A stretch of 64,000 nt of DNA from Escherichia coli. GTDB lineage: Bacteria; Pseudomonadota; Gammaproteobacteria; Enterobacterales; Enterobacteriaceae. The stretch's first letter is position 1, and the number at the start of each line of letters is the position of its first letter. The notes under the pieces were generated by a model, which had not been told where the DNA came from, ran no database searches, and saw only the letters and a program-made list of their open reading frames with translations. The position numbers and the translations under genes were made by a program. Positions 28,922-31,900 of this stretch are shown piece after piece. Location of the stretch: assembly GCF_044324875.1 (NCBI RefSeq), contig NZ_CP172185.1; one strand, given 5' to 3'.

Positions 28922-31900
28922 CTCGTTAATCGTGACGTTGTTGAGCGAGCCCGAATTCGCATTCACGTTACCACTGATATCGGCATTTTTCGCCGTCAGA
29001 CGCCCGTCCGGTGTCAGGGAAAATGCCGGGGGATTGCCGGATGAGGTGATACTCACCGCAAACAGTCGCTTCATGAAAACATCATTCATGAACAGCTGAT
29101 CACCCTGAGCCACAAACAAAGGTGTTGTATTGCCATTTTCCGGGTTAATCATCGCAATACGATCTGCCTGCATCAGGATCTGACTCTGAATTCCGTCAGA
29201 CGTATTTTCGATTCCGGCACCAATACCTGCAATATAGAGACGTCCATCCCGTGTCTGCTGCAGCTTCACAGCCCACATGCTGTTCAGGTTCCGGCGCGTG
29301 TCCTCCTGAACTTTCTGTATCTGCTCAATGCTGGCATTCCAGGATCCCAGTTTTTTATCCGTGCTCTGTTTGATCTGACTTCCCTTATCATCAACATACT
29401 GTCTGATCTGCGCTATCTGTCGGCTGTTCTCCTCCGTGCTCCTGCTTACTGTCTGCCGGATTTCGCTGCCCATCCTGTCAACTTTTCTGTCAACTTCCGC
29501 AATGGCCATTGACTGTTCACCGCTCTTTTTCGCCACAACAGTACTTATTTGCGCACTTTTATCATCAACATACTGCCTGACCTGCGCTATCTGTCGGCTG
29601 TTCTCCTCCGTGCTCCTGCTCACTGTCTGCCGGATTTCACTGCTCACGCTGTCAACTTTCCTGTCGACTTTCGCAATGGCCAGCGACTGTTCACCGCTCT
29701 TTTTCGCCACCAGTTCCGTTATGCTGTTTTCAGACGCCGTGATTTTTTTCGTCACCCCGGCGATATCACGCTCCGCACGCTGCCTCACATCTTTCTCCAG
29801 CTGCGTCATTTCGCGGTTAATCTCATTCTCCAGTTGCTCAACTTCAGTGCGCCGTGCAGAGGCATCAATGCGTTCATTGATCTCCCGTCCCAGATGCGTT
29901 TTATTTATCGCCCCCCTGAAAAAATTAAGGTAACCGGCAGGATCATTACTCGCCCGACCGACTGCCTCCACGAATGCCGATTTACCGACAGTGTTAACAC
30001 TGCGGATATAAAAGTAATAATCATGGCCAGGTTTAATATTCTGGCCGGAGACAAGCCACTGACTTCCGGTACCAAGATAACGGGCTGTGGTTTCAACCTG
30101 CCTGATATCGGTAATCCGCTTTTCCGAGAACCAGAACTCAAACTGCACCGTCGGATCATAAACGGCAAGATGCGGCGTGGCGGTTATCTGAAAATAGCCC
30201 GGCGTCAGCTCAATCCGCGACGGCGCTGCCGGTGCGGCAATCCGGAACGATACCGACGCCGGGTCTCCCTGCTGCCCCCGGGCATTTACTGCCCGGACTG
30301 TCAGCCTGTAGTTCCCCGGCGCCAGCTGCCTGAAGCGGTATGTGGTTTCCGTCGTCCGGGCCGTGCTGACCAGCCGCTCACTGCCGTCATCCGCTGCCAC
30401 GGTCAGGCGAAGCATGAAACTCACGCCTTTCACCACCTTCGGCGTGTCCCAGCGGGCCAGTACCTGATACTCCCCGCTGTCTGCGGTGACTTCGACAGTC
30501 AGGTGCTGCACTGCTGGCGGCGTGACACCATTCACCGTGCCGCTCTGGTCACCGTCAAAGTGTGCCCCGTTATCCACGATGCCCTCTTTTTCCGGTACAT
30601 GCTGCACGGCAGTGATGGCATACGTGCCGTCGTCGTTCTCACGGATACTCACGCAGCGGAACAGGCGCTGGCGCAGCGTCGGCAGCTTCAGCCCCCACAC
30701 GCTGTACTCGGCAACGCCGTCAGGAACCCGGCTCACTTTTACCTTCACGCCGTCGGTGACGGACTGAACCTCCACGCTGACCGGATTGCCACTTCCGTCA
30801 ACCAGGCTTATCAGCGTGGTACCGGAGGATGGCAGCGTGATTTCACGGTCGAGCGTCAGCGTCCGGGTCTGGCTGTTCACCGCCAGCACACGACCACCGG
30901 TGCTGATACCGGCATAGTCATCATCACAGATTTCAATGACATCCCCCGGTACATGGCGAAGCCCTTCAGCACCCACGCTGAAATCCACGGTCTGCGTCTC
31001 CAGCAGTTCTGTTTTAATCAGCCACAGCCCGGCGCGGTGTGCCTGCCCCCGGCTGGTACAGCCAAAGGCATCCATCTTCGTGACGTTACGACCGTAACGG
31101 GCAATGGCCTGCGTGTCCTCCACAAGCTCTGTCGCCGTCTCCTGGCCGTTATCCGGGTCACTCCAGTTCACCTCAACGGCATTATGGCGGTCCTTCAGGG
31201 CGCTGAAGCTGTAGCGGAACGGCGCGCCATCATCCGGCATCACCACATTACTGCGGTTATAGGTCCACACCTTATCCGACGGCCGGTCCTGCACGAACGT
31301 CAGCGTCTGCCCGTTCCATACCGGCATACAGCGCATCGCCGAGCAGAAATCACTGAGCACATCCCACGCCTTACGCTGCCTGGTCAGCCAGGCATTACAG
31401 GTGATGCGCGGCTCCGTGCCACCAGAGCCGTCCGGCACCGACTGGTCGCAGTACTGGCCGATAACATACAGCGCCCATTTGTCCACATCCGCTGCGCCAA
31501 CACGTTTCCCCATGCCGTAGCGCGGGTGGGTCAGCATATCCCACAGACACCAGGCCGGGTTATCGCTGTATGCCGGTTTAAACGTTCCGTCCCAGATACC
31601 GCTGTATTGCCGCGTCTGCGGGTTATAGTTCGACGGCACCTGCAGAATGCGCCCGCGAAGATGATAATTACGGCTCACCTGCTGGCTGCCGAACTGCTCC
31701 GAATCCACCTGCACACCGACCAGTGCCGTGTTCGGGTAGCACTGTTTCACATCGATGATTTCGGTGTATGACGACCAGAGCGTTTTGTTCTGCAGCTGGT
31801 CTGTGGTGCTGTCCGGCGTCATCCTGCGCATCCGGATACTGAACGGGCGCGGCGGCAGGTTACCCACCACCACCGAGGCCAGATACTGCGAGGTGGTTTT

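What the first reader, a model, noticed from the sequence alone, without database searches (positions are those of the whole stretch)
29380..29700. Tandem duplication of about 156 bp inside J
Two near-identical units encode repeated coiled-coil segments ([18 protein letters not shown]...[27 protein letters not shown]) that are absent from lambda J. They extend the distal stalk of the tail tip.
Basis: seen in the sequence. Interest (0 to 1): 0.3.

Follow-up and report, generated by a model that had tools for sequence, protein, structure and literature searches.

The report
Duplicated helical-shaft repeat in phage J
A prophage tail-tip gene (J) carries a real in-frame tandem duplication that would lengthen the helical rod between the tail tip and its receptor-binding end by about 9 nm. 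In this genome the gene has been broken by a mobile element, so the finding is a modest natural length variant, not a new system.

Summary
The repeat is real. Two copies lie on the minus strand inside a lambda-like J gene (28871..32371). The period is 174 nt (58 aa), not 156. The conserved core is 152 nt at 92% identity. The copies sit inside a ~170-aa insertion that lambda J lacks, in the middle of lambda's alpha-helical shaft (AHS, residues 809-861), between the second FNIII domain and the beta-prism fibre.

The extended shaft is an array of 29-residue repeats with a hydrophobic period of 3.63 residues (29/8), not a heptad period. AlphaFold2 models it as one ~200-residue helix. The duplicated block is two adjacent 29-mers, so it keeps the helical register.

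Copy number varies among E. coli prophages:
- 0 units in lambda.
- 1 unit in phage PhiR49_2 and 712 of 5426 complete genomes.
- 2 units here and in 21 genomes.
- 3 units plus an 11-aa duplication in strain AR_0085.
- An independent 29-aa duplication in strain AH20K059.

In this window J is a pseudogene. A 2639-bp IS21-family element with a 5-bp target duplication separates the shaft from the receptor-binding domain.

The most likely effect of the duplication in intact alleles is a shaft about 8.7 nm longer. A fold-switch role like that of F-type pyocins is possible, but the published motif is not enriched here.

The parts
28922..32371 (-). 5' part of the J (tip attachment / central tail fibre) gene, codons 1-1150. 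The mechanical ORF runs on to 28871 through 16 codons of IS sequence.
   Evidence: 93% identity to lambda J over aa 1-836 and 65% over aa 1012-1150. Pfam FNIII-A_GpJ, Phage-tail_3, Ig_J, Ig_J_second, Phage_Tail_Tip.
29276..29947 (-). Extended alpha-helical shaft (aa 809-1032), equivalent to lambda gpJ AHS residues 809-861 but ~170 aa longer. Built of 29-residue repeats.
   Evidence: Alignment to lambda. Hydrophobic period 3.63, power 4.2 against 0.98+-0.24 in shuffles, 0/500. Offset-29 sequence similarity, 0/1000 shuffles. AF2 models a continuous helix over J 826-1023. AHS is defined in PMC11101478.
29339..29857 (-). Block absent from lambda J (aa ~839-1011).
   Evidence: BLASTP leaves window aa 837-1011 unaligned between lambda residues 836 and 841. 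No sequence homologue in the PDB.
29537..29710 (-). Repeat unit 1 (aa 888-945; A-type 29-mer plus B-type 29-mer). High-identity core 29559..29710.
29363..29536 (-). Repeat unit 2 (aa 946-1003). High-identity core 29385..29536.
   Evidence: dN/dS between the cores is 0.19.
29795..29827 (-). 11-aa element [11 protein letters not shown], absent from single-unit alleles and itself duplicated in strain AR_0085.
26283..28921 (-). IS21-family insertion sequence (2639 bp; istA 27154..28800, istB 26382..27380) that interrupts J.
   Evidence: TG...CA ends and junction alignment against the intact LH50-c J. Pfam rve/Mu-transpos_C_2 and IstB_IS21. Annotated IS21 family copies in E. coli.
28922..28926 (-). 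Target-site duplication ACGAG, J-proximal copy.
26278..26282 (-). Target-site duplication ACGAG, distal copy.
25819..26282 (-). Severed 3' part of J (linker plus C-terminal receptor-binding domain).
   Evidence: Pfam Ig_GpJ_C, E 1.3e-38. Removing the IS and one TSD copy restores a 1302-aa J that is 1279/1302 identical to E. coli LH50-c gpJ. The RBD matches PDB 9wca 'A8 gpJ 713'.

Best explanation
The feature is an in-frame tandem duplication of a 58-residue block (two adjacent 29-residue repeats) within the alpha-helical shaft of the phage central tail fibre protein J.

Shown:
- The shaft lies between the FNIII-2 domain and the beta-prism fibre. In this allele family it has been expanded from lambda's ~53 residues to ~223 residues by serial duplication of 29-residue units.
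- The hydrophobic positions of these units recur every 3.63 residues.
- Related alleles carry 1, 2 or 3 copies of the 58-residue block, as well as separate 7-, 11- and 29-residue duplications.
- In this window the gene is inactivated by an IS21-family insertion, so here the repeat is a relic.

Inferred:
- The duplication arose by unequal recombination or slippage between the periodic units.
- Because 58 residues equal 16 helical turns, the duplication keeps the core register of a trimeric helical bundle. It adds about 8.7 nm of rod, giving a shaft of ~33 nm against ~8 nm in lambda.
- In intact alleles this moves the receptor-binding end further from the tail-tip cone.
For: - The repeat is real and in frame.
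- Position: 93% identity to lambda J up to residue 836, then 170 extra residues, then homology resumes at lambda 841. Lambda residues 809-861 form the three-helix 'alpha-helical shaft' below FNIII-2 (PMC11101478).
- Periodicity is 3.63 over aa 809-1036: power 4.2 against 0.98+-0.24 in shuffles (0/500), and power 0.07 at 3.5. The same 3.62 period is seen in single-unit alleles and after removing one unit.
- A 29-residue sequence periodicity is significant even in single-unit alleles (0/1000 shuffles).
- AF2 with a 17-sequence alignment gives one continuous helix over J 826-1023, with pLDDT 70-88 over most of it. AF2 without an alignment also gives helices.
- Copy-number series:
  - lambda, 49-residue anchor distance.
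  - PhiR49_2, B1W1 and N96, 150.
  - AH20K059, 186 (an 87-nt duplication).
  - The window, LH50-c and B771, 219.
  - AR_0085, 288 (174 nt x 2.9 copies plus 33 nt x 2.4 copies).
  
- The periodicity signal grows with copy number, 2.8 -> 4.1 -> 6.0. A simulated 56-residue duplication would abolish it (0.10, against 4.27 for 58).
- dN/dS between the two copies is 0.19 (dS 0.27), so both copies have been kept as coding sequence.
- IS disruption: clean junctions, 5-bp TSD, and a restored 1302-aa ORF 98% identical to an intact allele.
Against: - No structure of a trimer was computed or is available for this segment; the oligomeric state is carried over from lambda.
- The AF2 models are of moderate confidence (mean pLDDT 62 and 47) and are monomers.
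- About a third of all possible duplication lengths would preserve the register. Homology-driven slippage in a periodic sequence favours multiples of 29 anyway. Register preservation is therefore expected and is not proof of selection for length.
- No phenotype is linked to copy number.
- No isolated phage in a 50,697-record collection carries the two-copy form.
- In this window the gene is broken, so no function can be claimed here.
Confidence: 0.8

Rival explanations
1. Fold-switch module. The extended shaft is a metastable trimeric coiled coil that converts to a beta-prism on receptor binding, as shown for the F7 pyocin central fibre. Each 29-residue repeat would become one long strand, and the 58-residue duplication would add one antiparallel hairpin, and so more stored energy, rather than merely adding length.
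For: - The F7 pyocin central fibre has a 163-residue coiled coil in the same position (after FNIII-2, before a beta-prism seed) that switches to a beta-prism. Similar switches are predicted in 21 of 24 siphophage central fibres, including coliphages (PMC12874032). An independent structure is reported in 10.64898/2026.02.24.707460.
- In lambda, residues 841-861 of the shaft convert from helix to beta strands on LamB binding. The last 29-mer of the window shaft is the homologue of that segment, and the duplicated A-type units are its paralogues.
- The alternating A/B unit types fit a two-strand super-repeat.
- Alleles with the same shaft (B771, AR_0085) end in the T1/F-pyocin-type tip followed by two small ORFs.
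Against: - The published per-strand motif SxSxxMxxLxS is not enriched in the window shaft: 2 hits against 2.0+-1.5 in shuffles. It is strongly enriched in an Ala-rich distant homologue: 9 against 2.25, 0/1000.
- The shaft here is rich in Gln, Arg, Glu and Ser, not in the small residues needed at the prism corners.
- AF2 with an alignment predicted only the helical state, although the alignment was shallow and the model a monomer.
- AH20K059 duplicates a single 29-mer, which would give an odd strand increment.
- He et al. state that lambda itself does not show the extensive switch.
Confidence: 0.15
2. Neutral length polymorphism. The duplication is a by-product of slippage in a repetitive helical spacer, and any register-compatible length works equally well, so copy number has no adaptive meaning.
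For: - Several independent duplications of 7, 11, 29 and 58 residues occur in otherwise near-identical alleles.
- The third copy in AR_0085 is nearly identical to its neighbour; the array shows 96% matches overall.
- Shaft lengths from 49 to 288 residues coexist in E. coli prophages joined to the same flanking domains.
Against: - The two copies have diverged (dS 0.27) under purifying selection (dN/dS 0.19).
- The two-copy shaft has been retained while recombining with two different distal ends. This shows it is tolerated and maintained, but it does not show that length itself is selected.
- No test of phenotype was possible.
Confidence: 0.3
3. Extra docking site. The repeated unit is a binding platform for side tail fibres or another accessory protein, as on the F-pyocin shaft, and duplication doubles the number of sites.
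For: - In F-type pyocins three side-fibre trimers dock on an acidic patch of the coiled-coil shaft.
- Each B-type unit carries an acidic YVDDK motif.
- AF2 without an alignment breaks the helix at KSGEQ in each unit.
Against: - The side fibre encoded here has the lambda-type N-terminal domain (Pfam phage_tail_N). In Ur-lambda this domain forms a collar at the tail tip, not on the shaft.
- With an alignment AF2 predicts an unbroken helix.
- There is no direct evidence of any partner.
Confidence: 0.04
4. Assembly or sequencing artefact that created a spurious duplication.
For: - Tandem repeats are prone to mis-assembly.
- Many database proteins for this region are fragments ending in the repeat.
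- One metagenomic fragment (P0009) shows two suspicious 29-aa duplications.
Against: - The copies differ at 12 of 152 positions and have a distinct linker.
- The identical two-copy structure is present in 21 complete genomes from different laboratories.
Confidence: 0.01

Closest known systems
Bacteriophage lambda gpJ alpha-helical shaft (AHS, residues 809-861; PDB 8XCK/8XCI, Ge & Wang 2024, PMC11101478)
   Same: Same protein family (93% identity over residues 1-836) and same position between FNIII-2 and the beta-prism central straight fibre. The flanking halves of the lambda shaft are recognisable on either side of the insertion.
   Different: Lambda's shaft is ~53 residues and shows no 29-residue repeat or 3.63 periodicity. 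Here it is ~223 residues, made of about seven 29-mers, two of which form the duplicated block.
Single-unit extended-shaft J alleles of E. coli prophages and phage PhiR49_2 (PV340570)
   Same: Same insertion, same A-B-A unit order and same periodicity. This form is common (712 of 5426 complete genomes) and is carried by an isolated phage.
   Different: They have one 58-residue unit instead of two and lack the 11-residue [11 protein letters not shown] element. The units are about 60-70% identical to those in the window.
F-type pyocin central fibre coiled-coil shaft (F7 CFP residues 921-1083; PA0641 residues 907-1084; 2026 preprints PMC12874032 and 10.64898/2026.02.24.707460)
   Same: A long trimeric helical shaft in a J-like protein directly after the FNIII domains and before a beta-prism. 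Proposed to be metastable. Some E. coli alleles with the window's shaft share the same type of short distal tip followed by small downstream genes.
   Different: The pyocin shaft is described as heptad-based and Ala-rich, with the SxSxxMxxLxS motif. The window shaft has a 3.63 periodicity, is rich in polar residues, and is not enriched for the motif. No side-fibre docking is indicated.
Segmented coiled coils with 29-residue repeats (SF-assemblin, PMC2119799)
   Same: A 29-residue period equal to four heptads plus one skip residue, giving a near-straight helical bundle.
   Different: Unrelated eukaryotic cytoskeletal proteins forming two-stranded filaments. This is a resemblance in repeat arithmetic only; no homology was tested or is implied.

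Membership tests
Lambda-like tip attachment protein J (central tail fibre) | Sequence homology and domain order: hub/FNIII-A, Phage-tail_3, two Ig/FNIII domains, tail-tip fibre domain, C-terminal receptor-binding domain | tested here: met
   93% identity to lambda J over 836 aa. Pfam PF24801, PF13550, PF24421, PF24489, PF09327 in order. PF12421 Ig_GpJ_C lies in the severed 3' fragment.
Lambda-like tip attachment protein J (central tail fibre) | Single uninterrupted reading frame encoding hub to receptor-binding domain | tested here: not met
   A 2639-bp IS21-family element with a 5-bp TSD interrupts the gene after codon 1150. Removing it in silico restores a 1302-aa ORF. The gene here is a pseudogene of a family member.
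gpJ alpha-helical shaft (AHS) | Helical segment located between FNIII-2 and the beta-prism central straight fibre | tested here: met
   Flanking alignment to lambda residues 805-838 and 842-890. AF2 helix over J 826-1023, followed by beta strands.
gpJ alpha-helical shaft (AHS) | Parallel three-helix bundle in the assembled trimer | not testable with these tools
   Only single-chain prediction is available. A coherent amphipathic periodicity is compatible with a bundle but does not give the oligomeric state.
Canonical heptad coiled coil | Hydrophobic periodicity of 3.5 residues | tested here: not met
   Power 0.07 at 3.5 against 4.1-4.2 at 3.625-3.63. The same holds in single-unit alleles.
F-pyocin-type fold-switching central-fibre coiled coil (He et al. 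2026) | Long coiled coil immediately upstream of a beta-prism seed in a J-like protein | tested here: met
F-pyocin-type fold-switching central-fibre coiled coil (He et al. 2026) | Recurrent SxSxxMxxLxS pattern (alternating orientation) in each future strand | tested here: not met
   2 matches against 2.0+-1.5 expected from shuffles (572/1000 reach this). Positive control P0145: 9 against 2.25 (0/1000).
F-pyocin-type fold-switching central-fibre coiled coil (He et al. 2026) | Alternative beta-prism conformation predicted or observed | tested here: inconclusive
   The AF2 monomer with a 17-sequence alignment gave only the helix. The published method uses trimers and deep/shallow alignment sampling, which could not be run.
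IS21 family insertion sequence (the element that breaks J) | istA (DDE integrase) plus istB (ATPase) genes, TG...CA termini with multiple terminal repeats, short target duplication | tested here: met
   Pfam rve/Mu-transpos_C_2 and IstB_IS21. Termini TGCAAAATGGCAT... and ...CGCA, with repeated TGGCAT-containing motifs detected by TRF at 28792-28914. 5-bp TSD ACGAG. Near-identical copies are annotated as IS21 family in E. coli.

The most novel reading that the evidence does not exclude
The 29-residue repeats are modular fold-switch elements, paralogues of the lambda segment 841-861 that turns from helix into beta strands on receptor binding. Natural alleles with 1, 2 or 3 copies of the 58-residue pair would then differ in the amount of conformational energy, and in the number of beta-prism strands, available to open the tail tip. 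This would make these prophage alleles a ready-made dosage series for testing how non-contractile tails power DNA ejection. It would use a sequence solution different from the published SxSxxMxxLxS motif.
Probability: 0.12. Interest if true: 0.6.

Novelty: new member of a known kind. Interest (0 to 1): 0.3.

Why it matters
The shaft between the tail-tip cone and the receptor-binding end is the part of J that transmits, and in F-pyocins powers, the signal that opens a non-contractile tail.

This analysis shows three things about the shaft in E. coli lambdoid prophages:
- It is a 29-residue repeat array.
- It changes length in register-preserving steps of 7, 11, 29 and 58 residues.
- It exists in natural 0/1/2/3-unit forms.

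That gives structural virologists a natural allelic series to test whether shaft length sets stand-off distance, reach through O-antigen or capsule, or stored energy.

For this particular window the practical message is more mundane. The J gene is a pseudogene split by an IS, and the side-fibre gene also appears split. The prophage probably cannot make an adsorbing tail.

Tried and rejected
- Sequence search of the PDB with the shaft alone found no solved homologue of the inserted block; only the lambda flanks matched.
- The word-indexed protein search with the insert returned only 8 clusters, mostly fragments ending in the repeat, so it was of little use for counting copy numbers.
- AF2 on the single sequence gave a low-confidence model (pLDDT 47) with the helix folded back on itself. 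I read this as a monomer artefact.
- I tested the F-pyocin fold-switch motif and rejected membership on that criterion.
- I looked for the same J-IS junction in 5426 complete E. coli genomes and found none, so the source genome could not be identified. The closest prophage relatives are in poultry isolates such as LH50-c.
- I looked for the two-copy form in 50,697 phage records and found none.
- I considered that the 29-aa duplication in the metagenomic fragment P0009 was further evidence. I set it aside because the same fragment has a second exact 29-aa duplication in the beta-prism domain, which suggests mis-assembly.
- I tried to define the exact recombination junction of the duplication. 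The 7-residue linker resembles both flanks and the junction cannot be resolved.
- A literature search for the PhiR phage collection found only papers that use those phages, with no description of J.
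Full report
OBSERVATION

Tandem Repeats Finder reports an array at window 29385..29710 with period 174, 1.9 copies, 92% matches and no indels. 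An offset scan of the enclosing gene finds one outstanding self-match at 174 nt / 58 aa and nothing comparable elsewhere.

The highly conserved core is 152 nt (140/152 identical; 45/51 aa). Copy 1 is at 29559..29710 (aa 888-938) and copy 2 at 29385..29536 (aa 946-996). The cores are separated by a diverged 22-nt linker. The full 58-residue units are 29537..29710 and 29363..29536. The '156 bp' figure is the conserved core, not the period.

The repeat lies in frame in a minus-strand ORF, 28871..32371 (1166 codons).

WHAT THE GENE IS

The ORF is 93% identical to lambda J over residues 1-836. Residues 837-1011 have no counterpart in lambda. Residues 1012-1150 then align to lambda 841-980 at 65% identity. 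Pfam finds the J domain series FNIII-A_GpJ, Phage-tail_3, Ig_J, Ig_J_second and Phage_Tail_Tip.

The ORF stops 16 codons after residue 1150, where lambda J continues into its receptor-binding domain. The cause is an insertion sequence:
- Alignment with an intact allele shows a clean junction.
- The inserted element spans window 26283..28921 (2639 bp).
- It has TG...CA ends and encodes IstA and IstB (Pfam).
- It is flanked by a 5-bp target duplication, ACGAG.

Deleting the element and one target copy restores a 1302-residue J that is 1279/1302 identical to gpJ of E. coli LH50-c. The severed 3' fragment (25819..26282) carries the Ig_GpJ_C receptor-binding domain. This domain is closest to the solved 'A8 gpJ 713' structure, PDB 9wca. 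No complete E. coli genome in the collection has this J-IS junction. In this window J is therefore a pseudogene.

WHERE THE REPEAT SITS IN THE PROTEIN

In lambda, residues 809-861 form the 'alpha-helical shaft' (AHS). This is a three-helix bundle under the FNIII-2 domains that holds the tip closed. On LamB binding the shaft flips, and residues 841-861 convert to beta strands (PMC11101478).

The window's extra 170 residues are inserted between lambda residues ~838 and ~842, in the middle of this shaft. The PDB holds no sequence homologue of the inserted block.

ANATOMY OF THE EXTENDED SHAFT

Laid out in rows of 29 residues, the shaft is a repeat array with alternating unit types:
- A-type units: [29 protein letters not shown].
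- B-type units: [29 protein letters not shown].
- A final A-like unit, [29 protein letters not shown], which is the homologue of lambda 838-865.

The 29-residue periodicity is significant in alleles that lack the recent duplication. The mean BLOSUM62 score at offset 29 is 0.62-0.88, against a shuffle maximum of about 0+-0.11 (0/1000).

Hydrophobic residues recur every 3.63 residues (29/8) coherently over aa 809-1036. The power is 4.2 against 0.98+-0.24 in shuffles (0/500), and there is no signal at the heptad value of 3.5 (0.07). The same period is seen in single-unit alleles and after removing one unit.

AlphaFold2 with a 17-sequence alignment models J 826-1023 as one uninterrupted helix, with pLDDT 70-88 over most of it, followed by the beta strands of the fibre. 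Without an alignment it also predicts helices, at low confidence.

At 0.15 nm per residue:
- One 58-residue unit corresponds to about 8.7 nm.
- The whole shaft is about 33 nm, against about 8 nm in lambda.

COPY-NUMBER VARIATION

I measured the distance between the conserved GYL..F.G and MWAVK anchors. It falls into discrete classes:

| Anchor distance (aa) | Alleles | Notes |
|---|---|---|
| 49 | lambda type | no insertion |
| 77 | a common E. coli type | |
| 150 | phage PhiR49_2, strains B1W1 and N96 | single 58-residue unit |
| 186 | strain AH20K059 | an 87-nt tandem duplication of one B-type 29-mer plus a 7-residue duplication; TRF period 87, |
| 219 | the window, LH50-c, B771 | two units plus an 11-residue element |
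| 288 | strain AR_0085 | TRF 174 nt x 2.9 copies at 96% matches, and 33 nt x 2.4 copies, |

Frequencies:
- The single-unit form is in 712 of 5426 complete E. coli genomes and in an isolated phage.
- The two-unit form is in 21 genomes at >=99% identity.
- The two-unit form is in none of 50,697 phage records.

The two-unit shaft is joined to at least two different distal ends:
- A lambda-type receptor-binding domain (LH50-c and the window).
- A short T1/F-pyocin-type tip followed by two small genes (B771, AR_0085).

The two copies differ by dS 0.27 and dN 0.05 (dN/dS 0.19). The duplication is therefore not recent, and both copies have been kept as coding sequence.

REGISTER

The periodicity signal rises with copy number, from 2.8 to 4.1 to 6.0, so the hydrophobic stripe stays in phase across the duplications. 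In a simulation, a 58-residue duplication keeps the signal (4.27), whereas a 56-residue (eight-heptad) duplication would abolish it (0.10).

About a third of all lengths are compatible with the register. Slippage in a periodic sequence also favours multiples of the period. This is consistent with, but not proof of, selection on register.

MECHANISM

The best-supported reading has three steps:
1. Unequal recombination or slippage between 29-residue units duplicated an A-B pair.
2. The product is a longer trimeric helical shaft that remains in register.
3. In intact alleles the receptor-binding end sits ~8.7 nm further from the tail-tip cone per unit.

What is shown: the duplication, its position, its helical character, its periodicity, the allelic series and the IS disruption. 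What is inferred: the trimeric bundle state (from lambda), the physical length, and any effect on infection.

RIVAL: FOLD SWITCH

Two 2026 preprints show that the F-type pyocin central fibre has a ~165-180-residue coiled-coil shaft at this position.
- PMC12874032 shows the shaft converting to a beta-prism to drive tape-measure ejection, and predicts similar switches in many siphophage fibres.
- 10.64898/2026.02.24.707460 describes the shaft as metastable.

The window shaft shares the position, and its units are paralogues of the lambda segment that does turn into beta strands. However, the published SxSxxMxxLxS motif is not enriched here (2 hits against 2.0+-1.5). It is strongly enriched in an Ala-rich distant homologue (9 against 2.25, 0/1000). 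AF2 gave only the helical state. I keep this reading at about 0.15.

OTHER RIVALS

- Neutral polymorphism cannot be excluded without phenotypes.
- A side-fibre docking role is unlikely. The side fibre here has the lambda-type N-terminal domain, which in Ur-lambda forms a collar at the tip.
- An assembly artefact is excluded by the 21 independent genomes.

COMPARISON AND NOVELTY

The protein is a member of the lambda J family, here as a pseudogene, and the segment is an expanded version of its alpha-helical shaft. Long helical shafts in J-like proteins are now known, and distant homologues with much longer shafts exist.

Within the papers searched, I did not find described:
- The 29-residue repeat architecture.
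- The 3.63 periodicity.
- The stepwise copy-number polymorphism in E. coli lambdoid prophages.

This is a new member of a known kind, of modest interest. It is useful as a natural allelic series, but it has no function in this particular genome.

Noticed in passing
window 26283-28921: A 2639-bp IS21-family element (istA 27154..28800, istB 26382..27380, minus strand) is inserted in J after codon 1150 with a 5-bp target duplication ACGAG. It severs the receptor-binding domain (25819..26282). No complete E. coli genome in the collection shares this junction.
   Followed up: yes
window 28792-28914: TRF reports 23/47-bp repeats here. They are the multiple TGGCAT-containing terminal repeats of the IS21-family element, and they also supply the 16 foreign codons and the stop codon of the truncated J ORF.
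   Followed up: partly
window 21284-25760: The side tail fibre gene also appears split. Its N-terminal domain (phage_tail_N, 25509..25760) is separated from a collagen-repeat ORF (21284..22780) by IS66-family genes (tnpA/B/C, 22844..25459). In the relative LH50-c this is one 1806-nt gene. IS boundaries were not mapped.
   Followed up: partly
window 16332-17492 and 57999-59800: There are further insertion sequences. One is a Mutator/IS256-family transposase ORF (16332..17492). The other is a second IS21-like pair of ORFs (57999..59021, 59018..59800), which matching E. coli records annotate as IS100-type and which lies inside the prophage replication region. The prophage appears heavily IS-ridden.
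   Followed up: partly
window 17856-21269: Downstream of the tail fibre lie a DUF4376 protein (20694..21269), a YadA-like trimeric autotransporter with a YadA_anchor domain (18373..19968) and a sigma-70 region-4 protein (17856..18311). The DUF4376 and YadA-like genes occupy the same positions in the LH50-c and B771 prophages.
   Followed up: no
window 52978-53131: Two adjacent tRNA genes on the minus strand, tRNA-Arg(tct) and tRNA-Met(cat), lie inside the prophage.
   Followed up: no
window 29549-31771 (+): A 740-codon ORF runs antisense to J. It is probably a by-product of codon composition rather than a gene.
   Followed up: no
L005 4403-4627 and 3741-4403; L003 3403-3627 and 2741-3403: In B771 and AR_0085 the same extended shaft is joined to a short T1/F-pyocin-type J tip (ending ...NNVLRVRLGRL). 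It is followed by two small hypothetical genes (74 and 220 aa), where lambda-type alleles have an in-frame receptor-binding domain. This layout resembles the separate receptor-binding-protein loci described downstream of J in Drexlerviridae.
   Followed up: partly
L007 3785-3956 (E. coli AH20K059 gpJ): An independent 87-nt (29-aa) tandem duplication of the B-type half-unit, plus a 7-aa duplication (LEENIGQ/LEEDIRQ), in a single-unit allele. The hydrophobic register is preserved.
   Followed up: yes
protein P0009 (metagenomic fragment, 538 aa): This fragment carries an exact 29-aa duplication in the shaft and a second exact 29-aa duplication in the beta-prism domain ([29 protein letters not shown] twice). 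Two 87-nt duplications in one fragment suggest an assembly artefact, so it was not used as evidence.
   Followed up: no
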